Shown: positions 1,412 to 61,865 of the stretch, one piece after another
Numbering within the stretch: position 1 is the first letter of the stretch
Layout of the letters: each line of letters starts with the position of its first letter
Assembly (NCBI GenBank): GCA_034722995.1
Contig: JAYEOL010000022.1
Location: forward strand, 4,859 to 68,858
Direction of reading: 5' to 3'
Source of the DNA: Candidatus Cloacimonadota bacterium
GTDB taxonomy: Bacteria > Cloacimonadota > Cloacimonadia > JGIOTU-2
Length of the DNA stretch: 64,000 bases
Notes under the pieces: generated by a model
Database searches by the model: none
What the model was told of the DNA's origin: nothing
What the model saw: the letters and a program-made list of their open reading frames with translations, nothing else
Program-made: the position numbers and the translations under genes

Positions 1412-1905
1412 AAGAAAAGAAAGATATTAAAGAAAATCTAAATATAGATAAAAATGAAAGTAAAAAAATTTACGATTTGCTTAGAAAGCGAGTTAGAAAA
1501 TCTGCTACTAATTATGTTGGTAAAAGGTATATAAAATTTATAGAATATGTTCTGCTTATTCCAGATTTTTTTATGCTCTTATGGAGATTGATGCTTGATA
1601 AAGAAATAGGAAAAGAGAAAAAATTATTTATTGGAGCTATCACTGCTTATGTACTCCTTCCTATTGATTTGATTCCTGATTTTATACCAGTAATTGGTTT
1701 TGTGGATGATTTGGTTCTAATTGCGATTGGCTTGAACACCATTTTTGTAAAAACAGATAAAAAGATTTTACAAAAGCATTGGAGTGGTGAAGGAGATATT
1801 TTAGAAAGGATTCAATCAATTATAAAACTTGGGAATGATATTTTGTCAAACAGAATAATTGGTAAGATAACTCGTTGGGTGAACAAAAGAGCGGGAATAA
1901 AGTAG
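1408..1905 (+). CDS. DUF1232 (YkvA-like) membrane protein
   Basis: Motif LLPIDLIPDFIPVIGFVDDLVLIAIGL. The start overlaps the previous gene by 4 nt. Confidence 0.7.
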   Translation: MKEKKDIKENLNIDKNESKKIYDLLRKRVRKSATNYVGKRYIKFIEYVLLIPDFFMLLWRLMLDKEIGKEKKLFIGAITAYVLLPIDLIPDFIPVIGFVDDLVLIAIGLNTIFVKTDKKILQKHWSGEGDILERIQSIIKLGNDILSNRIIGKITRWVNKRAGIK

Positions 1906-1929
1906 CAGTTAGCAGAAGCAGCGGCAGTA
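1901..1929. repeat. Left arm of an inverted repeat that flanks the four-helix-bundle gene cassette (agtagcagttagcagaagcagcggcagta)
   Basis: Reverse-complementary to the [GCAGTAG/GCAGTTAG]-type repeats at 2407-2437. Confidence 0.6.
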
Positions 1930-1971
1930 AAGAACGAGGTAAAAAATGTTAGGGGGCTTTGAGGATTTAAA

Positions 1972-2048
1972 GGTTTACCCCGTTGGATACTAAATTGCAT
2001 TTTAACCCATATTTATAGTAAAGAATTCTATATCCAACGGGGTAAACC
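1972..2048. mobile_element. MITE-like element, family A copy 1: perfect 18-bp terminal inverted repeats ggtttaccccgttggata / tatccaacggggtaaacc
   Basis: Read directly; 77 bp; sits in the 5' leader of the four-helix-bundle gene. Confidence 0.6.
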
Positions 2049-3167: not shown

Positions 3168-4877
3168 ATGAAAAAAATAATTATATTATCCAAGTTGTTA
3201 CTAATTGCTATCATCCTATTTTCTTTCAGTCTTGCAATAGCAGAGATAATCAATGTACCTAATGACCAGCCGACAATACAAGATGGAATTGATATTGCAG
3301 ATAATTGCGATACAGTTTTAGTTCAACCTGGCACCTATGTAGAAAACATTAATTATAACGGGAAGAACATCACAGTTGGCTCATTATTCCTAACAACCCA
3401 GGATACAATCTATATTTCACAAACCATTATTGATGGTAACGAGGATGGACATGTGGTAGAATTTAGCGGTGGGGAGGATTCAACAGCAATTTTAGCCGGT
3501 TTTATAATTACAAATGGATTTGCTTTAAGAGGTGGTGGGATTTTATGTATACTTTCTTCCAGTCCAAGTTTAACAAATGTAGCTATTATTGAAAATACTG
3601 CTGTACAACATGGTGGTGGGATTTACTGTATTTGTAGTTCTAGCCCAAGTTTAAATAATGTTATAATAGGTGGCAATACTGCTGTTAACGGTAATGGTGG
3701 TGGAGTTTTCTGTTGGGATAATTCTAATCCTATTTTAGGTGATGTTACTATAAGTGGAAATACTGCTGATTGGTATGGTAGTGGTTTTTACTGTAGTGAG
3801 TCAAATCCAATTTTAATCGATGTTACTATCATTGGAAATGCAGGTTATAGTGGTGGAATTTGCTGCTTTTCAAATTCCAATCTCAGTTTAACCAACGTTA
3901 CCATTATAGGAAATGCTGGTTTATATGGTGGTGGCGTTATTTGTGATAATAATTCCAGTCCGAGTTTTACAAATGTTACGATCAGTGAAAATGCTGCAGA
4001 ATATGATGGTGGTGGGATTTTCTGTTGGGATAATTCCAGTCCCATATTGAGCAATGTTACAATCAGTAAAAATACTGCTGAATATGATGGTGGTGGTATC
4101 TACTGTAGAGATTCAAGTCCGATGTTAACCAATGTCACAGTCAGTGGTAATACTGCTTATTATGGGGGTGGGCTCTACTGTGTTAATTCATCTCCCAGTT
4201 TAGTAAATTGTATTCTATGGAATGATACTCCCCAAGAAATCTATGTATATTCTGGAAATGTTTTTTCAACTTATTCAGATATTCAAGGTGGCTGGACTGG
4301 TGAAGGCAACATAGACGCAGACCCATTATTTGCTGACCCGGAAAATGGAGATTTCCATTTAACATGGGCGAACTTTCCAATACAAGATTCTACTATGTCT
4401 CCTTGTATAGATGCTGGTAATCCTGATACAACTGGGCTTAATCTACCACCCTTTGATTTAGATGGAAATCCAAGAATAGTGAATGAAATAATAGATATGG
4501 GTGCTTATGAATGGCAAAAGCAAGTTGGAGTAGATGGGTTTGATGAATCTTCAATAGCTACTGGATTATTCCAGAACTATCCTAATCCATTTAGTACTTC
4601 GACAACTATTTCATTTAATCTAGCCACGAGGTTACACAAATTCCCCCCATTAGATAGCAAGCATCTAACGGGGCAGGCACGAATAAAGATCTATAATGTA
4701 AAAGGACAATTAATTAAGCAATTGTTCCCGATTGCTATCGGGATAAATAATAAATCGTCAATCGAATGGGATGGAAAAGATGAGAATGGTAATCCATTAA
4801 GTTCAGGAATTTATTTCTATAAATTGGAAGTTGGAGATAAAATTATTGACATTAAGAAGTGCCTTTTGTTGAAATAG
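3168..4877 (+). CDS. Secreted protein with right-handed beta-helix repeats and a T9SS C-terminal sorting domain
   Basis: Signal peptide. Many NVTI.GN.A..GGGI.C repeats. C-terminal YQNYPNPF...IYNVKGQLI...GIYFYKL, a type-A T9SS sorting domain. Confidence 0.8.
   Translation: MKKIIILSKLLLIAIILFSFSLAIAEIINVPNDQPTIQDGIDIADNCDTVLVQPGTYVENINYNGKNITVGSLFLTTQDTIYISQTIIDGNEDGHVVEFSGGEDSTAILAGFIITNGFALRGGGILCILSSSPSLTNVAIIENTAVQHGGGIYCICSSSPSLNNVIIGGNTAVNGNGGGVFCWDNSNPILGDVTISGNTADWYGSGFYCSESNPILIDVTIIGNAGYSGGICCFSNSNLSLTNVTIIGNAGLYGGGVICDNNSSPSFTNVTISENAAEYDGGGIFCWDNSSPILSNVTISKNTAEYDGGGIYCRDSSPMLTNVTVSGNTAYYGGGLYCVNSSPSLVNCILWNDTPQEIYVYSGNVFSTYSDIQGGWTGEGNIDADPLFADPENGDFHLTWANFPIQDSTMSPCIDAGNPDTTGLNLPPFDLDGNPRIVNEIIDMGAYEWQKQVGVDGFDESSIATGLFQNYPNPFSTSTTISFNLATRLHKFPPLDSKHLTGQARIKIYNVKGQLIKQLFPIAIGINNKSSIEWDGKDENGNPLSSGIYFYKLEVGDKIIDIKKCLLLK
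4645..4673 (+). repeat. Imperfect palindrome ccccattagat-agcaagc-atctaacgggg inside the T9SS CTD coding sequence of the beta-helix protein
   Basis: 10 of 11 stem positions pair. It sits where this CTD has about 11 extra residues (TRLHKFPPLDSKHLTGQAR) relative to the other two CTDs in the window. Confidence 0.55.
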
Positions 4878-4929: not shown

Positions 4930-5101
4930 TAGTGTCTGTCCGTAAGGTCATTGTTTGTAGAACGACCTTTCCGTCTGGGCGCCGAGACTGACCAAGGTCG
5001 TTAATGTAAATAGGCTTTTCATGCCAAAGGCAGATTCCACGGAAAATGTGCCTTAAGAAAACGAGCTTAGAACCTCGTTCTACATTTACGGACAGACACT
5101 A
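4930..5101. mobile_element. 172-bp hairpin element bounded by perfect 16-bp TIRs (tagtgtctgtccgtaa / ttacggacagacacta), GC-richer than its surroundings
   Basis: TIRs read directly. Internal secondary IRs (gtagaacga / tcgttctac). Lies between the T9SS gene and pmm. Confidence 0.6.
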
Positions 5102-6518: not shown

Positions 6519-6740
6519 AAATCAACAATAGCGTTTGTTACTTTTATTATAAACGATGAATCCTAAAACAGGAAAATAAGTAAAAGGTGATTATTCTTAT
6601 TTAGGGTTATAAGAATAAATCTTGATATTTAAAATACTATTCTACAATCTATAAAAGGTTGTTCAAAACAACCAATCCAAGTGAAATAGAAAAACAGATT
6701 TCACGGGACAGGAATAATAACTAAAAACTTGGAGGATAAC

Positions 6741-8726
6741 ATGAAGAGACAAAATTTAAATGCTAATTTATCTGAGACATACAAGCAATTTGGTATGTTA
6801 AAATGGAAAATTCTATATTTATTCTTGGTTGCCTTATTATTATCAACACAGCTTTTTGCAGAAAATTGGATGCAACTTTATCCAGAAATTGATGGTCCAG
6901 TTGCTGATATGGAATTTTCAGAAATCCCTGGTATTTCTGAATATGGTTTGATTTTTGCTATTGCTGATAGCGGTGGAGGATTAGGATATTTTGATAGTCC
7001 TGGAAACTTTAGTATCTTTAATATTGCGACAAATCTGGGAGCAGTTTCTGTTGCACCTGATAATGCAAACAACCGTATTTTCTGTGCTTTTGGCTGTGGA
7101 AGTTATAGTGATGGACTCTATGAATTTGATGTTGCTACACATCAATTTGAACTAATAGAATGGGCTTTTAATCCAAATTTTGTAGAAAAACTTGCATCAG
7201 GATATTACTTTGGCTTTGGATGGGATTGGTTCGGAGGATTGTTTCATTCTGTTGATGGAGATAACTGGGCAAGCATTGATTATTTTAACAATAAAGTGGT
7301 AAGAGATATTGAAGAGACAAGTGATGGCACTCTCTTTGTTGCAGCGGGAAATGAAATTTGTATTGCAAACGATACTACTTTTAGCTCATTTGATACTGAT
7401 TTGCCAGTAAATGATATTTATGTTTGCCATTACCCAACAGAAGAGGTTTTTATTGCTTGTGGAGATGGCACTGATTCTGATGGAATTTATAAAGTAGAAT
7501 ATGAAGATGGAGAGATTACAGGGCTTACTTTGATAAACTGGGCAATTTATCCGAATGAAATTTATGAGTATACAGATTGGCTTGTAGTTGGATGTTTAAA
7601 TTCAGAGGGTCTCTGGCTTGTAGAACCAGTAGAAATGGGTGAAATACATCAAATAGGCACAGAACTTGATTTTGAGGATGTTTACTGTTTTGAAACATAT
7701 CCGATATATTGTCACAACATTATGGTTGGCACTGACAATGGAGTTTATTTAGGAACAAATTTGGAACCTGGTCCTTGTAATATTTCTGTATTTGAAGCAC
7801 ATTGGAATAGTTCGGATAATGTGTCAATTATTCATTGGCGAACTGAATCTGAAACAGATGTTATTGGTTTTTATATCTATCGTAATGATGAGCCTGATTT
7901 TAGCACAGCAGAACTAATTTCTGGTTTAATCCCCGGTCATGGCACTACAACAGAACCCCATGATTATTATTTTATAGATGTTGGCATAGTACCATATCCA
8001 ATGGATGAATATTGGTATTGGCTGGAAAGTGTAGATTTTGGTGGAGAATTCCATATTTATGGACCAACCAATTTACTCATTCCAAATTGTGTCCTTTCTA
8101 TTTTTGTTGCACAATATTTAGATAATACTCCAACTCTTTATTGGATAACACAATCAGAGACAGATAATTTAGGCTGGAATATTTATCGTTCAATAAATGA
8201 TGGTTTGTTTGCCAGTGCAGAGATGATAAATATTGGGTTGATTCCTGGCTATGGCACAACAACTGAACCACATAGTTATATTTATGAAGATCCGGATTTG
8301 GAAGCCAATTCAGGAGATATTATTTGGTATTGGCTGGAGAGTATAGATTTTGGTGGAGTATCTTATATTTATTATCCACCTGCAAGTCTGGTCATTCCGG
8401 AGATTGGTATTGATGAGAGACCTGCACACTCATCAGGTGTTGTATTATATCAGAATTTTCCCAATCCGTTTAGTCCCCGATTTAATCGGGGATCAACCAT
8501 GATTTCTTTCAATTTAGCCACAAAATCACACAAAAAAGCACTAATAAAAATTTACAATGTCAAAGGACAGATTGTAAAACAATTGTCAATAGTCAATTGT
8601 CAATCGTCAATTGAATGGGATGGAAAAGATGAAAATGGCAAACTACTTTCTAATGGAATTTATTTCTACAGATTGACAGTTGACGATAAGATTATTGATA
8701 CAAAAAAATGTGTGATTTTGAGATAA
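6741..8726 (+). CDS. Secreted T9SS cargo protein with two tandem repeats of about 100 aa
   Basis: GGAGGA RBS immediately before the ATG at 6741 (the track start at 6729 is TTG). Internal repeats ETD..G..IYR...GLIPG.GTTTEPH...WYWLES.DFGG. C-terminal YQNFPNPF...IYNVKGQIV...GIYFYRL. Confidence 0.75.
   Translation: MKRQNLNANLSETYKQFGMLKWKILYLFLVALLLSTQLFAENWMQLYPEIDGPVADMEFSEIPGISEYGLIFAIADSGGGLGYFDSPGNFSIFNIATNLGAVSVAPDNANNRIFCAFGCGSYSDGLYEFDVATHQFELIEWAFNPNFVEKLASGYYFGFGWDWFGGLFHSVDGDNWASIDYFNNKVVRDIEETSDGTLFVAAGNEICIANDTTFSSFDTDLPVNDIYVCHYPTEEVFIACGDGTDSDGIYKVEYEDGEITGLTLINWAIYPNEIYEYTDWLVVGCLNSEGLWLVEPVEMGEIHQIGTELDFEDVYCFETYPIYCHNIMVGTDNGVYLGTNLEPGPCNISVFEAHWNSSDNVSIIHWRTESETDVIGFYIYRNDEPDFSTAELISGLIPGHGTTTEPHDYYFIDVGIVPYPMDEYWYWLESVDFGGEFHIYGPTNLLIPNCVLSIFVAQYLDNTPTLYWITQSETDNLGWNIYRSINDGLFASAEMINIGLIPGYGTTTEPHSYIYEDPDLEANSGDIIWYWLESIDFGGVSYIYYPPASLVIPEIGIDERPAHSSGVVLYQNFPNPFSPRFNRGSTMISFNLATKSHKKALIKIYNVKGQIVKQLSIVNCQSSIEWDGKDENGKLLSNGIYFYRLTVDDKIIDTKKCVILR
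8474..8492 (+). repeat. 19-nt palindrome tccccgatt-t-aatcgggga inside the T9SS CTD coding sequence (encodes the extra peptide PRFNRGS)
   Basis: A near-identical copy, tccccgatttactcgggga, lies in non-coding DNA at 46350-46368. Confidence 0.7.
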
Positions 8727-12679: not shown

Positions 12680-14473
12680 ATGAAACAATTACTAATTTAT
12701 CTATTGACAATGTGCTTTTCTGCACAACTATTCAGTTTGGATTATATTGAGAGTTCCAGTGGCTTGAATATTCCACAATTAGACGGTGGAAGGACCGAAT
12801 TAGAATTTGCAGATATTGATGCAGATGGTAATATTGACATCTTGTCCATTGGTGACCATGGTTCACCTTATATTAATACCAGTGAGCATGGCATTATGGT
12901 TTGGTTTGGAGATGGAAATGGCAGTTGGGGTGTGTATCAGAATGGAAATTTTGGTTATGGAGGTATTGCAGTCGGAGATGTCAATAATGATGGTTTGCTG
13001 GATGTTGGATATGCAATGCATCACAATTATTCAAGTAGTGATTTTGGAAACCAGCTTATTGAAGTTGCATTGGGCGATGGAACGGGAATGAATTGGACCC
13101 CCTGGGATGATGGATTGGCAACAAATGGTGAAACTTGGGGAATGTTTGGCACTGATTTCGCAGATGTTGATAATGATGGTGATTTAGATATTGGAAGTAA
13201 TTCTTTTGGTTCTGGTGCAGGTGTGCATATTTATCTAAATCAAGGTGATGGCAGTTGGATACAGTCTTTTGGATTTCTCGGAGGAAACTCTGATATGGAC
13301 TTCATTTTTGGCGATATCAACAACGATGGCAATATAGATTTTGCTGCCAAACATCAATATGGAACTGTTTATTTTGGTGACGGAACTGGAAACTTTGTCA
13401 ATGCAGATGGAAATCTACCATCTTATAGCAAATATGGAACAGCTCTTGGCGATGTAGATAATGATGGTGGAAAGGATATTTCATTTGTTACAGGTTATTC
13501 AAATGCAGGTGTAAAGGTCTGGGTATGGGATGAAGGCCAGGAAGTATGGACGGATTTTTCAGGGAATCTTCCTACAACCGGTGGTTATGAAGCAACTCAA
13601 TTATATGATATGAATGTTGATGGATACATAGATTTATGTACTTTTGGGAATGGCACATTTACTTTATGGCTTGGTGATGGGGCAGGAAACTGGGACCAAG
13701 ATGCTCAATTTAACACACCACTTTATGGCTATTGTGAAGCATTCCGAGTAGGTGGAGATATAGACCATAATGGTTTTCCCGATATAGTATTAGTCTCTGA
13801 TGAGGGTTCATGGCCTAGTTCATATAATCATTTGCATTGTTTTAAAGAAACTGCCGTAGCAGAAAGTCTGACAATTACACCGATGTCTCCAAGAGGGAAT
13901 GAGTATTTCATCAGATTTTCTACACAATTTATTGATTGGGTTTCCGCTGTACCTGATGATGACTCATCGCTTGTTAAACTTGAGTATTCAAGATTTGGGA
14001 ATAATGGTCCTTGGGCAATGATTGCAGATAGTTTGCCTAATAATGGTCGTTATCAATGGACAATTGCACGAATCAGCTCATCAGATTGTTATATCCGCTA
14101 TACTGTTTGGACAGTAACAGATACTGTAACATCAATTACCCCGTCTGCTTTTTCGGTTTCTAGTACTCCACCAGCAACGGATGATATATCTATAAATCAA
14201 AAAGCCTTCATACAAAATTATCCTAATCCATTTGACAAACAAACTACGATTAAATTTTCTATTCCAAAAGATTGCTATGTAGAATTAAATATTTATGATA
14301 TTAAAGGCAAATGGCTTAAAACATTAGTAAATAGAAGAATGAAAGCAGGGTCTCATAATATTGTTTGGAATGGGAGGAATCATAATAATACCATTCTTCC
14401 CAATGGTATCTATCTTTATCAGATTAAGATAGATGATTATTATTTAAATAAAAAGATGTTGTTATTAAGATGA
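12680..14473 (+). CDS. FG-GAP repeat (integrin-alpha-like beta-propeller) protein with a T9SS C-terminal domain
   Basis: Repeated D.D.DG..D motifs (DIDADGNIDI, GDVNNDGLLDV, ADVDNDGDLDI, GDINNDGNIDF, GDVDNDGGKDI). C-terminal IQNYPNPF...IYDIKGK...GIYLYQI. Confidence 0.8.
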   Translation: MKQLLIYLLTMCFSAQLFSLDYIESSSGLNIPQLDGGRTELEFADIDADGNIDILSIGDHGSPYINTSEHGIMVWFGDGNGSWGVYQNGNFGYGGIAVGDVNNDGLLDVGYAMHHNYSSSDFGNQLIEVALGDGTGMNWTPWDDGLATNGETWGMFGTDFADVDNDGDLDIGSNSFGSGAGVHIYLNQGDGSWIQSFGFLGGNSDMDFIFGDINNDGNIDFAAKHQYGTVYFGDGTGNFVNADGNLPSYSKYGTALGDVDNDGGKDISFVTGYSNAGVKVWVWDEGQEVWTDFSGNLPTTGGYEATQLYDMNVDGYIDLCTFGNGTFTLWLGDGAGNWDQDAQFNTPLYGYCEAFRVGGDIDHNGFPDIVLVSDEGSWPSSYNHLHCFKETAVAESLTITPMSPRGNEYFIRFSTQFIDWVSAVPDDDSSLVKLEYSRFGNNGPWAMIADSLPNNGRYQWTIARISSSDCYIRYTVWTVTDTVTSITPSAFSVSSTPPATDDISINQKAFIQNYPNPFDKQTTIKFSIPKDCYVELNIYDIKGKWLKTLVNRRMKAGSHNIVWNGRNHNNTILPNGIYLYQIKIDDYYLNKKMLLLR

Positions 14474-34216: not shown

Positions 34217-34732
34217 ATGAAAGAACTTTCAGATGAATATTGGATGAATATTGCATTAGAAGAAGCACAAACTGCCTTTGCAGAAGATGAAATTCCCATA
34301 GGTGCAGTTTTGGTATGCAATGATAAACTTATTGCCCGAGCTCATAATAGCACGCAGAGATTAAATAGTCCTCTGGCTCATGCAGAAAAATTAGTTATTG
34401 AATTGGCTCAACAGGAATTGGGAAAGTGGTTATGTGATTGCAGATTGTATATAACACTCGAGCCATGTGCAATGTGTGCTGGTGCGATTATTCTCTCAAG
34501 AATAAAATCAGTAATTTTTGGTACTTTTGATGAGAAAAACGGGGCATGTGGGTCTTTATATAATTTGCTTTCAGATAGGCGATTTAATCATAATCCCGAA
34601 GTAAAATCTGGTATTTTCGCAAAAGAATCCAGTGAACTCTTGAAGAGATTTTTTAATGAAAAGAGAATTTCAACCACCTGCCTTTTCACCCTTCGTCCCG
34701 ATGAAATCGGGACTACGGAGAACGGGCGTTAA
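34217..34732 (+). CDS. tadA: tRNA-specific adenosine deaminase TadA with a roughly 21-aa C-terminal extension
   Basis: HAE and PCAMCAGA zinc-binding motifs. The canonical C-terminus (...LKRFFNEKR) is followed by ISTTCLFTLRPDEIGTTENGR, encoded by a repeat module. Confidence 0.85.
   Translation: MKELSDEYWMNIALEEAQTAFAEDEIPIGAVLVCNDKLIARAHNSTQRLNSPLAHAEKLVIELAQQELGKWLCDCRLYITLEPCAMCAGAIILSRIKSVIFGTFDEKNGACGSLYNLLSDRRFNHNPEVKSGIFAKESSELLKRFFNEKRISTTCLFTLRPDEIGTTENGR
34695..34713 (+). repeat. Hairpin module gtcccga-tgaaa-tcgggac inside the 3' extension of tadA. Copies of the same family lie at 58909-58928, 59041-59066 and 57632-57651.
   Basis: Read directly. The flanking ctacggagaacgggcg is also a recurring module. 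Confidence 0.65.
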
Positions 34733-35119: not shown

Positions 35120-35210
35120 GGAGAGATGCCAGAGTGGTTGAATGGGACGGTCTCGAAAATCGTTTTCCCGATTATCGGGAACGTGGGTTCGAATCCCACT
35201 CTCTCCGCCA
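35120..35210 (+). tRNA. tRNA-Ser(CGA), long variable arm (TTCCCGATTATCGGGAAC), encoded CCA
   Basis: Acceptor GGAGAGA/TCTCTCC, anticodon loop CTCGAAA, T-loop GTGGG TTCGAAT CCCAC. Confidence 0.85.
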
Positions 35211-61426: not shown

Positions 61427-61697
61427 GATTAATAAAATATATCATAAAATGTTGATGAAAAAATCAGGGGAAGAACGATTCCTTATGGGAATAAGTTTAT
61501 GTGAAACTGCCAGAAAAATGGTTTTGGCTTCCTTTCCTGATAATATCAATGAAGATGAAAAACATGTGAAATTATTGATTAGATATTATAAAAATGAATT
61601 TTCAACAAATGAAATGAATAAAATTGTTGATAATATTAAAACAACCCAGTTCACCCTGTTAAATCCCTTCGGGATCCCGATATATCGGGATATTTAA
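61407..61697 (+). CDS. Partner-family small protein downstream of NTase copy 4 (GTG start with AAGGAG RBS)
   Basis: …KKSGEERFLMGISLCETARKM… shares the partner motif. Gene order is inverted relative to the other copies. Confidence 0.4.
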   Translation: MKDTSDKINKIYHKMLMKKSGEERFLMGISLCETARKMVLASFPDNINEDEKHVKLLIRYYKNEFSTNEMNKIVDNIKTTQFTLLNPFGIPIYRDI

Positions 61698-61865
61698 CAG
61701 GGTGAAATAAAAGAAGCATAAGATTTCACCCCGATGAAATAACAAAAAAAAGATTTCATCCCAGTGAAACAAAAAAGATGGTTTCACAGGATAAATTGGG
61801 CAGGCGGGTCAAGAAAAGTAAAAAGCAATCCGTCTACGCTACACCGAGACTGGCAACTAAAAAGC

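What the first reader, a model, noticed from the sequence alone, without database searches (positions are those of the whole stretch)
4645..4673. Second T9SS CTD carrying an in-frame palindromic insertion
In the beta-helix cargo protein the CTD has FNLA-TRLHKFPPLDSKHLTGQAR-IKIYNV, where the paralogous CTD has only TKSHKKAL. The extra roughly 11 codons coincide with the palindrome ccccattagat-agcaagc-atctaacgggg (10 of 11 stem pairs). This is an independent instance of the same pattern, with a different element sequence.
Basis: seen in the sequence. Interest (0 to 1): 0.6.

Follow-up and report, generated by a model that had tools for sequence, protein, structure and literature searches.

The report
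Mobile hairpin inserted in secretion-tag gene
The 29-base palindrome inside this secreted protein's C-terminal sorting domain is a copy of a small hairpin-shaped DNA element that occurs almost letter for letter in bacteria and archaea of many phyla, and it adds 11 codons without breaking the reading frame.

Summary
CCCCATTAGAT-AGCAAGC-ATCTAACGGGG sits at 4645-4673 (10 of 11 pairs). It lies in the beta1-beta2 loop of the T9SS type A sorting domain of ORF 3168-4877. The paralogous domain (ORF 6729-8726) is 11 codons shorter there.

The palindrome alone is not beyond chance. The comparative data make the case:
- Six other Cloacimonadota sorting domains carry the same 29-mer at the same loop. None of the 7 stem codons shows a synonymous change, against 15 of 21 flanking codons.
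- The hairpin matched more than 120 loci in many bacterial phyla and two archaeal lineages. Most are intergenic; 26 of 136 are stop-free inside long ORFs.
- It forms a clean 11-12 residue insertion in a cysteine desulfurase and a UDP-GlcNAc 2-epimerase.
- Identical 4-nt flanks (TNAA) occur 24 times against 4.3 expected. 29 + 4 = 33 nt preserves the frame.
- No Rfam family, linked transposase or publication was found.

Best reading: a non-autonomous REP/MITE-like hairpin element, behaving like Rickettsia palindromic elements, tolerated in a loop of the sorting domain, which in P. gingivalis is cleaved off after export. What mobilises it is unknown. Two variant copies lie at 1972-2048 and 61650-61706.

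The parts
4645..4673 (.). 29-nt hairpin core: arms CCCCATTAGAT / ATCTAACGGGG, loop AGCAAGC. There is an A.C mismatch on the mRNA strand and a G.T pair on the antisense strand.
   Evidence: same 29-mer in other genomes
4641..4677 (.). Hairpin with its 4-nt flanks, TTCC and CAGG. These are degenerate versions of the family's usual flanks (TTCA/TTTA/CTTG/CCTG on the 5' side, TGAA/TAAA/CAAG/CAGG on the 3' side). They do not form a direct repeat in this copy.
4626..4682 (+). Enlarged beta1-beta2 loop of the sorting domain, TRLHKFPPLDSKHLTGQAR. It is 11 codons longer than in the paralogue and is built as CACNRAT-type heptamer, hairpin, CACGAAT heptamer.
   Evidence: AF2 model: strands at residues 24-29 and 49-54 of the 114-aa query, low pLDDT between them
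4578..4874 (+). T9SS type A C-terminal sorting domain of the host protein
   Evidence: Pfam PF18962 at residues 471-559 spans 89 residues for 67 model positions; TIGR04183 scores 25.3 against a cut-off of 23
3168..4877 (+). Host gene: secreted right-handed beta-helix protein with a signal-peptide-like N-terminus and a T9SS sorting domain
4721..4748 (.). Second, unrelated palindrome in the same sorting domain (core CCCGAT-TGCT-ATCGGG at 4727-4742). It encodes FPIAIG in the beta2-beta3 loop, where the paralogue is shorter.
   Evidence: -12.1 kcal/mol, z -4.1
8520..8543 (+). Empty-site comparison: the short loop TKSHKKAL of the paralogous sorting domain (ACA AAA TCA CAC AAA AAA GCA CTA)
1972..2048 (.). 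Family member with a variant stem: perfect 17-nt arms GGTTTACCCCGTTGGAT / ATCCAACGGGGTAAACC around a 43-nt centre. It is intergenic, immediately upstream of the 23S_rRNA_IVP gene (2051-2389).
   Evidence: (-31.4 kcal/mol, z -5.8)
61650..61706 (.). Family member with a variant stem: TTCA-CCCTGTTAAAT [27 nt] ATTTAACAGGG-TGAA. The centre holds a nested CCCGAT-ATAT-ATCGGG hairpin.
   Evidence: -32.1 kcal/mol, z -6.6

Best explanation
The palindrome is a copy of a small, non-autonomous, hairpin-shaped repeat element. The core is 29 nt: CCCCRTTAGAT, a loop of about 7 nt, then ATCTAAYGGGG. Copies are dispersed through the chromosomes of many uncultivated bacterial and archaeal lineages.

The proposed mechanism is as follows. 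An enzyme supplied in trans, not identified here, inserts the element at TNAA-like sites and duplicates 4 nt. The 29-nt core plus the 4-nt duplication adds 33 nt, which is exactly 11 codons, so the reading frame is kept. In one frame per orientation the element has no stop codon; it reads PLD-x-x-x-LTG on one strand and NPVRCLLSNGV on the other. A copy that lands in a tolerant surface loop therefore survives as an 11-residue insertion.

Here the element sits in the beta1-beta2 loop of a T9SS type A sorting domain. That loop varies in length among homologues, and in Porphyromonas gingivalis the domain is cleaved off after export. The cost to the mature protein should therefore be close to zero.

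Shown: the element's identity, its dispersal, its in-frame occurrence in real genes, the excess of 4-nt direct repeats, nucleotide-level conservation of the stem, and its position in a loop.

Inferred: transposition as the means of spread, the enzyme, tolerance because the domain is cleaved off, and whether the sorting-domain copies descend from one old insertion or from repeated targeting of the CACAGAT-like loop sequence.
For: (1) Two sorting domains found by protein homology, not by DNA pattern (P0002 and P0003, from different MAGs, 59-63% amino-acid identity), carry the same 29-mer and differ only in the loop.

(2) Across the 7 sorting-domain copies compared pairwise, the hairpin is 93-100% identical. 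The flanks are 54-100% identical (mean 76% over 24 nt upstream, 82% over 45 nt downstream). In the six of these copies used for the codon test, among codons whose amino acid never changes, 0 of 7 stem codons show a synonymous change against 15 of 21 flanking codons (Fisher p = 0.0014).

My own estimate of the chance expectation in 596 Gb is below 1. Hits come from Patescibacteria, Omnitrophota, Elusimicrobiota, Nitrospirota, Ignavibacteria, Planctomycetota, WOR-3, Gammaproteobacteria and others, plus Aenigmatarchaeota and Promethearchaeota. Several MAGs hold 3-4 copies.

(4) 26 of 136 copies lie stop-free inside ORFs of at least 150 aa. These include CCA-adding enzyme, PheT, DnaX, PolX, a solute-binding protein, cysteine desulfurase, a transketolase-like protein and UDP-GlcNAc 2-epimerase. 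Alignments to solved structures show the hairpin-encoded NPVRCLLSNGV as a clean gap of 11-12 residues in the homologue.

(5) Identical 4-nt flanks occur 24 times in 127 copies against 4.3 expected. Inverted flanks occur 8 times against 10.4 expected. The duplicated tetramers are TAAA, TCAA, TGAA and TTAA. The 29-nt form makes up 22 of 26 genic copies but 55 of 110 non-genic copies (p = 0.0017).

(6) The loop is usually short: mode 9 against 22 here. The AF2 model places the insertion between beta1 and beta2 with low confidence there and an intact sandwich.

(7) No gene is shared among neighbours, and no transposase family is enriched among 141 neighbouring ORFs. This fits mobilisation in trans.
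Against: The window copy has no 4-nt direct repeat (TTCC and CAGG), and neither do the other sorting-domain copies. Insertion boundaries here rest only on the paralogue comparison.

Only about 20% of all copies have identical flanks. Many have flanks drawn from a small fixed set, so the true ends of the element are uncertain.

No autonomous parent element or enzyme was found.

All 7 sorting-domain copies share the same A.C variant and the same site. This fits a single old insertion kept unchanged by selection just as well as it fits recent mobility, and that would point to a function for the hairpin.

The hits from other phyla were selected by an exact stem pattern, so stem conservation within that set is by construction.

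Related Cloacimonadota metagenome contigs (330 kb) hold only one copy.
Confidence: 0.7

Rival explanations
1. The hairpin is a functional nucleic-acid structure kept by selection inside sorting-domain mRNAs. It could be a ribosome or RNA-polymerase pause site, an RNase III processing site or an attenuator. It may once have been mobile but now serves the host.
For: The stem shows no synonymous change in six diverged sorting domains while the flanks vary. The syntenic orthologue L003 has a different but still palindromic sequence at the same site (CCTCCG-cag-TAGCA-a-TGCTA-CGGAGG). That pattern is what conservation of structure with turnover of sequence would look like. Other sorting-domain loops also hold palindromes.
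Against: All sorting-domain copies carry the A.C mismatch on the mRNA strand, so the sense RNA folds worse (-11.8 kcal/mol) than the antisense (-17.9 kcal/mol). The same hairpin sits in unrelated enzymes and in intergenic DNA of other phyla. Most homologous sorting domains lack it. No Rfam family matches.
Confidence: 0.15
2. The segment is a native, vertically inherited loop of one subfamily of sorting domains. The peptide PLDSKHLTGQ is what is selected, and the palindrome is a by-product.
For: The peptide is conserved in 7 sorting domains at the same position.
Against: Synonymous sites in the stem are frozen, which selection on the peptide does not explain. The identical DNA occurs in non-coding contexts and in the other reading frame and strand elsewhere. 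The AF2 model gives the segment low confidence and no regular structure.
Confidence: 0.07
3. The palindrome arose locally and de novo by template switching during replication (quasi-palindrome correction), not by insertion of a pre-existing element.
For: Template switching is a known source of perfect inverted repeats. This sorting domain contains several short palindromes.
Against: It cannot explain more than 120 copies with the same arms, a related loop and related flanks in unrelated loci.
Confidence: 0.03
4. It is a site for a site-specific recombinase: integron attC-like, or a core site with two inverted arms around a spacer. Such a site could be used to shuffle sorting-domain cassettes.
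For: GTTAGAT and ATCTAAC fit the integron core consensus GTTRRRY / RYYYAAC. The variant stems GTTGGAT and GTTAAAT fit it as well. The layout of 11-nt arms around a 7-nt spacer recalls tyrosine-recombinase core sites. Both the consensus and the layout are from my own knowledge.
Against: The order of the two boxes is the reverse of attC. The centre varies from 5 to more than 70 nt. There are no cassette arrays and no integrases among the neighbours. The excess of direct repeats is not expected from conservative recombination.
Confidence: 0.03

Closest known systems
Rickettsia palindromic elements (RPE)
   Same: Both are palindromic repeats dispersed through a genome. Many copies are inserted in frame into unrelated protein-coding genes, where they add a conserved peptide without destroying the protein (review PMC10969869).
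   Different: RPEs are about 100-150 bp and are described from Rickettsia. This element is 29 nt (33 nt with its duplication), has an unrelated sequence, and occurs in many phyla and in archaea.
REP / REPIN elements mobilised by RAYT transposases, including intragenic REPs
   Same: Both are 20-40 nt imperfect palindromes, mostly intergenic, multi-copy, with G.T pairs in the stem. Di Nocera et al. report REPs inside ORFs that encode extra residues (PMC3733652).
   Different: This element has no GTAG or CGTC tag; the flank consensus is R-T-T-Y-A. REP families are described as specific to a species or genus (my own knowledge), whereas this sequence crosses phyla. The 4-nt direct repeats are not a REP feature. 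No RAYT gene was seen.
Prokaryotic MITEs (Correia, ERIC, Chunjie and others)
   Same: It has terminal inverted repeats, no coding capacity and dispersed copies. A subset of copies has short direct repeats, and the centre varies in length (5 to more than 70 nt) between conserved arms.
   Different: It is far smaller than any MITE in the 2024 review. No parent insertion sequence is known. The terminal 4 nt vary while the inner arm is conserved, which is the reverse of the usual pattern.
piggyBac / IS1380-type transposon ends (a lead from memory, not tested)
   Same: Both have a 4-bp duplication of a TTAA-like target (here TAAA, TCAA, TGAA, TTAA) and ends that begin CCC and finish GGG.
   Different: No transposase of that kind was found near any copy. 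The resemblance is short and could be chance.

Membership tests
T9SS type A C-terminal sorting domain (host domain) | Match to Por_Secre_tail (PF18962 / TIGR04183) above the curated cut-off, at the extreme C-terminus | tested here: met
   PF18962 scores 29.3 against 27 and TIGR04183 scores 25.3 against 23, over residues 471-561 of 569
T9SS type A C-terminal sorting domain (host domain) | Beta-sandwich fold that stays intact despite the insertion | tested here: met
   The AF2 model has strands at residues 24-29, 49-54, 60-64, 74-79, 92-100 and 103-113. Block-mean pLDDT is 76-92 from residue 51 on and 59-64 across the inserted loop
T9SS type A C-terminal sorting domain (host domain) | Directs secretion and is cleaved by PorU | not testable with these tools
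   Known for P. gingivalis cargo proteins (PMC8545088 abstract). Not shown for Cloacimonadota.
MITE | Terminal inverted repeats and no coding capacity | tested here: met
   11-nt arms with 10 of 11 pairs; 29 nt in total
MITE | Target-site duplication | tested here: inconclusive
   For the family, identical 4-nt flanks occur 24 times in 127 against 4.3 expected. The window copy has TTCC and CAGG, which is no repeat.
MITE | A parent insertion sequence with the same ends | tested here: not met
   No arm pair enclosing a transposase in about 0.9 Mb of loci. No transposase family among 141 neighbouring ORFs. No whole genome was searched.
REP / RAYT | GTAG or CGTC tetranucleotide tag at one end | tested here: not met
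   Flanks are TTCA, TTTA, CTTG or CCTG; no GTAG or CGTC. The criterion comes from PMC3733652.
REP / RAYT | Short imperfect palindrome, mostly extragenic, many copies | tested here: met
   110 of 136 copies lie outside long ORFs. Single MAGs hold 3-4 copies in a truncated scan.
REP / RAYT | A cognate RAYT gene in the genome | not testable with these tools
   Only 64 kb of the source genome and fragments of MAGs were available. None was seen among the neighbours.
Rickettsia palindromic elements | In-frame insertion into unrelated ORFs, adding a conserved peptide | tested here: met
   This shows that it works like an RPE, not that it is one.
Rickettsia palindromic elements | Length of about 100-150 bp in one of the RPE sequence families | tested here: not met
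   29-33 nt; RPE size taken
Integron attC site | RYYYAAC at the 5' end and GTTRRRY at the 3' end, 55-140 nt, extrahelical bases, next to cassettes | tested here: not met
   The boxes are present but in reverse order (GTTAGAT...ATCTAAC). The element is 29 nt. No cassette arrays or integrases were found. The attC criteria are from my own knowledge.
Rfam RNA families | Match to any curated covariance model | tested here: not met
   The window at gathering threshold gives only two tRNA-Ser genes. 18 hairpin loci at E up to 1 give nothing at the hairpin.

The most novel reading that the evidence does not exclude
The hairpin belongs to an undescribed family of ultra-small mobile elements found in Bacteria and Archaea. 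The family has a 29-nt core and a 4-nt TNAA duplication, giving a 33-nt insertion that always preserves the frame. It spreads between distant lineages (CPR, DPANN, Asgard, the FCB group, Planctomycetota and others) and colonises essential genes as 11-residue loop insertions. An enzyme not yet identified, possibly of the piggyBac/IS1380 type, would mobilise it.
Probability: 0.4. Interest if true: 0.8.

Novelty: new variant of a known kind. Interest (0 to 1): 0.62.

Why it matters
Three points follow if this reading is right.

First, odd long loops in T9SS sorting domains, and in many proteins from MAGs, may be scars of selfish DNA rather than functional features. This affects domain models, structure prediction and annotation.

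Second, a 33-nt insertion that keeps the frame, found inside cysteine desulfurase, PheT, DnaX and CCA-adding enzyme of small-genome lineages, would be an extreme case of a transposon adapted to gene-dense genomes.

Third, near-identity of the element across phyla and across the two domains implies either a widely exchanged mobilising enzyme or a conserved host factor that recognises the hairpin. Either would be worth finding. The element could also serve as a marker of recent DNA exchange among uncultivated lineages.

Tried and rejected
- Chance palindrome: rejected on the comparative data, not on the fold statistics, which are weak.
- Known RNA family: Rfam gave nothing for the window or for 18 hairpin loci.
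- Cultured plasmids and phages: no BLAST match. IMG/VR gave only 8 hits, so the element is not mainly viral.
- Literature: full-text searches for the arm sequences and for related keywords found no description. A P. gingivalis paper holds the 11-mer once; the passages returned did not show it and it was not followed further.
- Linked mobilising gene: all-against-all BLAST of 931 ORFs lying within 1.5 kb of a hairpin, and a Pfam scan of 141 ORFs within 3.5 kb, showed no shared family apart from sorting-domain proteins. Candidate long arm pairs in L094 and L049 enclose ordinary genes.
- Stem extension by covariation of the 4-nt flanks: rejected. Inverted flanks occur 8 times against 10.4 expected.
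- Excision at the RNA level (an intron-like element): rejected. Deleting the hairpin plus 4 nt restores a long ORF in only 1 of 136 cases (L009), while 26 copies read through in frame.
- Integron attC: the box order is reversed (see the membership test).
- L003-type palindrome as a second dispersed family: no other copy in 0.9 Mb of held loci. No public collection was scanned for it.
- Exact source contig: the host protein is not on record. No close orthologue (above about 60% identity over the full length) was found in the metagenome scan, so no true empty orthologous site was obtained.
Full report
**1. The observation.** Window 4645-4673 reads CCCCATTAGAT-AGCAAGC-ATCTAACGGGG, with 11-nt arms, 10 of 11 complementary positions and a 7-nt loop. 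It lies in frame in ORF 3168-4877. That ORF encodes 569 aa with a signal-peptide-like N-terminus, right-handed beta-helix repeats and a C-terminal T9SS type A sorting domain. PF18962 scores 29.3 against a cut-off of 27, and TIGR04183 scores 25.3 against 23. The Pfam match covers 89 residues for 67 model positions, so the domain carries extra residues.

Two further sorting-domain proteins lie at 6729-8726 and 12680-14473. The first is a close paralogue of the domain, 64% identical over 114 aa. It reads FNLA-TKSHKKAL-IKIYNV where the finding reads FNLA-TRLHKFPPLDSKHLTGQAR-IKIYNV. That is 11 extra codons, most of them the palindrome.

**2. Is the palindrome more than chance?** On its own, barely. 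The window has 11 hairpins with stems of at least 11 nt, at most one mismatch and loops of 3-9 nt. Composition-matched shuffles give about 8. For G+C-rich arms the figures are 3 against 0.6. The mRNA strand folds at -11.8 kcal/mol (z -2.2), and the antisense strand, where the mismatch becomes a G.U pair, at -17.9 kcal/mol (z -2.8). The case rests on comparison with other sequences.

**3. The same DNA in other sorting domains.**
- A protein search with the 114-aa sorting domain returned 222 Cloacimonadota-type domains.
- Two of them come from different MAGs and are only 59-63% identical: P0002 (KSHENTPLDSTHLTGQAQ) and P0003 (DLNRFSPLDSKHLTGQAQ). They share the inserted peptide.
- Their DNA carries the same 29-mer and differs only in the loop (AGCACGC, AGCAAAC). 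These two were found through protein similarity, independently of any DNA pattern.
- With four more sorting-domain copies found later (L095, L110, L008, L014), the hairpin is 93-100% identical between copies. The 24 nt upstream are on average 76% identical and the 45 nt downstream 82%.
- In the six of these copies used for the codon test, among codon columns whose amino acid is invariant, 0 of 7 stem codons show a synonymous difference against 15 of 21 flanking codons (Fisher p = 0.0014). The stem is therefore held at the nucleotide level, not the peptide level.

**4. The loop is normally short.** I measured the stretch between the end of strand 1 and the start of IKIYN. Among the 120 listed homologues the mode is 9 (51 sequences), followed by 10 and 11. 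Only 6 reach 21 or more. The window scores 22. In 59 sorting domains from 80 metagenome loci related to the host protein the mode is again 9 (43 sequences). The only long loop (21) carries the same hairpin. An AlphaFold2 model of the domain puts beta1 at residues 24-29 and beta2 at 49-54 of the query. Block-mean pLDDT is 59-64 across the inserted loop and 76-92 from residue 51 on.

**5. The hairpin is dispersed far beyond sorting domains.**
By my own arithmetic, with 20 fixed and 2 two-fold positions and 5 gap lengths, fewer than one match is expected by chance.
- Hosts include many Patescibacteria classes, Omnitrophota, Elusimicrobiota, Nitrospirota, Ignavibacteria, Planctomycetota, WOR-3, Aerophobetes, Thermodesulfobacteriota, Gemmatimonadota, Gammaproteobacteria and Cloacimonadota. 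Two archaeal MAGs also match: Aenigmatarchaeota and Promethearchaeota.
- Several MAGs contribute 3-4 loci even though the scan was truncated.
- Loops cluster around AGYAARC or its complement, with an 8-nt class as well.
- Variant stems with compensated changes (GTTGGAT/ATCCAAC, GTTAAAT/ATTTAAC, CCCT/AGGG) and centres of 10 to more than 70 nt occur next to the exact copies.
- Two such variants lie in the window. One is at 1972-2048, with perfect 17-nt arms and a 43-nt centre. The other is at 61650-61706, TTCA-CCCTGTTAAAT...ATTTAACAGGG-TGAA.
- Caveat: because the scan fixed the stem, stem identity within that set is by construction. The informative features are the loops, the flanks, the contexts and the number of hits.

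**6. In-frame copies in real genes.**
- 26 of 136 copies lie without a stop codon inside open frames of at least 150 aa.
- Pfam identifies the hosts as ordinary genes: CCA-adding enzyme (Jorgensenbacteria), PheRS beta chain, DnaX, PolX, a family-5 solute-binding protein, a class V aminotransferase, a transketolase-like protein, a helicase and UDP-GlcNAc 2-epimerase.
- Alignment of the Elusimicrobia epimerase with 5enz, and of the Omnitrophota cysteine desulfurase with 9wep, shows the hairpin-encoded NPVRCLLSNGV as a clean gap of 11-12 residues in the solved homologue.
- In both cases the flanks are TTTA...TTTA. Removing 29 + 4 nt restores the homologue's register.
- Deleting the hairpin plus 4 nt rescues a broken long ORF in only one case, L009. 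Genic copies are therefore the in-frame, stop-free survivors, not sequences removed from the RNA.
- The 29-nt form, which adds 33 nt with a 4-nt duplication, makes up 22 of 26 genic copies but 55 of 110 others (p = 0.0017).

**7. Signs of insertion.**
- Identical 4-nt flanks occur in 24 of 127 copies against 4.3 expected from the flank composition. Inverted flanks occur 8 times against 10.4 expected, which is no excess.
- The duplicated tetramers are TAAA (11), TCAA (5), TGAA (5), TTAA (3) and CAAA (2).
- Longer direct repeats (at least 7 nt within 24 nt of the hairpin) occur 26 times against 4 expected. Some begin about 4 nt from the hairpin, for example 12 nt in L025 and 11 nt in L071. Many of these are the short CACAGAT-, CACGAAT- or ATCAGCG-type heptamers that surround the hairpin in several phyla and that also make up the sorting-domain loop.
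- In one Ignavibacteria MAG, three copies share a longer repeat of about 150 nt that contains the hairpin.
- The exact ends of the mobile unit are therefore not settled. The window copy, with flanks TTCC and CAGG, shows no duplication.

**8. What it is not.**
- No Rfam family matches.
- There is no match in cultured plasmids or phages, and only 8 hits in IMG/VR.
- No neighbouring gene family recurs, and no transposase appears among 141 neighbouring ORFs.
- GTTAGAT and ATCTAAC fit the integron core consensus, but the two boxes are in the reverse order and the element is far too short for an attC site.
- The GTAG or CGTC tag of REP superfamilies (PMC3733652) is absent.

**9. Explanation.** The best-supported reading is a non-autonomous REP/MITE-like hairpin element that behaves like Rickettsia palindromic elements (PMC10969869) and like the intragenic REPs reported by Di Nocera et al.. 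Copies are scattered through the genome. Those that fall in genes persist only where 11 extra residues are tolerated.

A T9SS sorting domain is a permissive host. The beta1-beta2 loop varies in length, and in P. gingivalis the domain is cut off after export (PMC8545088).

The same domain carries a second, unrelated palindrome at 4721-4748, and the paralogue carries one at 8474-8492. Other Cloacimonadota sorting domains hold further palindromes in the beta2-beta3 loop, such as TTCCCAATT-c-AATTGGGAA in L110 and TCCCGTTA...TAACGGGA in L008. The syntenic orthologue L003 holds a different palindrome at the very same site. These loops therefore look like a sink, or a hotspot, for small palindromic DNA.

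**10. What remains open.** All seven sorting-domain copies share the same site, the same A.C variant and frozen stems. Two readings fit this. One is repeated targeting of the CACAGAT-like loop sequence by an active element. The other is a single old insertion whose stem is kept by selection, which would imply a function such as pausing, RNA processing or continued recognition by the mobilising enzyme. I favour a selfish passenger but cannot exclude exaptation. The enzyme is unknown. The TTAA-like 4-nt duplication and the CCC...GGG ends recall piggyBac/IS1380-type transposons, but that is a lead from memory, not a test.

**11. Verdict.** In-frame palindromic repeats are a known kind, so I class this as a new variant of a known kind. 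The breadth of hosts and the 33-nt frame-preserving design were not found in any source I could search.

Noticed in passing
window 8474-8492, 4727-4742, 61676-61689, 34697-34711, 35167-35179: CCCGAT N0-12 ATCGGG occurs 5 times in the window against 0.00 expected. Two copies are in-frame insertions in the two sorting domains, in different frames. One is nested inside the hairpin element at 61650-61706. One is the variable arm of tRNA-Ser(CGA). One lies upstream of the tRNA-Ser pair. This may be a second small hairpin family.
   Followed up: partly
window 1903-1935 and 2395-2440, around ORF 2051-2389: The 23S_rRNA_IVP / bAvd-like four-helix-bundle gene (Pfam E 4.8e-29) is bracketed by inverted GTAGCAG/CTGCTAC-rich repeats. 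The 1972-2048 hairpin element sits directly upstream of its start codon. It looks like a small mobile cassette between DUF1232 and Ham1/RdgB.
   Followed up: partly
L003 1290-1335 (ENA ERZ2433807 contig, syntenic: sorting-domain gene, then PGM, then sorting-domain gene): The syntenic orthologue of the host sorting domain (74% identical) has a loop of similar length but a different palindrome, CCTCCG-cag-TAGCA-a-TGCTA-CGGAGG, at the same site. Its gene is only 123 aa and lacks the beta-helix part. No other copy was found in 0.9 Mb of held loci.
   Followed up: partly
Flanks of hairpins in L006, L024, L038, L047, L077, L079, L121, L123 and others; window 4623-4644 and 4678-4690: Short heptamer repeats (CACAGAT, CACAGAG, CACGAAT, ATCAGCG, ATCTGCG) surround the hairpin in several phyla. 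The same motifs encode the common T-E-N-T-E / A-T-D-L-H-R loops of sorting domains. Whether they are part of the element, its preferred target or unrelated is unknown.
   Followed up: partly
L082 3890-3940 (Cloacimonadota): The hairpin plus a duplicated TGAA interrupts a HEPN/DUF86-like reading frame (..EVIGE | ASKRIPESIRKK) and brings in an in-frame TAG. This appears to be a gene broken by the element. I read it from the sequence; it was not confirmed with a family search.
   Followed up: no
L009 1262-1291 (Patescibacteria): Deleting the 30-nt hairpin plus 4 nt joins two open frames into one of 413 aa. This is the only such case among 136 copies.
   Followed up: no
L001 420-450, L002 3181-3215, P0005: The beta2-beta3 loop of several sorting domains encodes PMTNDQCQMT, made of tandem ATGACAA / ATGTCAA heptamers and duplicated in P0005. 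Similar ATGTCAAATG repeats flank a hairpin in a Patescibacteria locus, L025.
   Followed up: no
P0040, P0069, P0096; L136 1516 and 4833: A recurrent insertion (A/S)GAGRSP lies directly after the NPFNP motif of sorting domains. This is the same site as the SPRFNRGS palindrome of the window paralogue.
   Followed up: no
window 61707-61795: Downstream of the 61650-61706 element lie three similar units: GATTTCACCCCGATGAAA, GATTTCATCCCAGTGAAA and GGTTTCACAGGAT. They reuse the TTCA-CCC beginning of the hairpin arms.
   Followed up: no
window 4930-5060: The G+C-rich stretch between the host gene and the phosphoglucomutase gene includes the hairpin AAGGCAGATTCCACGGAAAATGTGCCTT at 5027-5054. There is no Rfam match at gathering threshold.
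   Followed up: no
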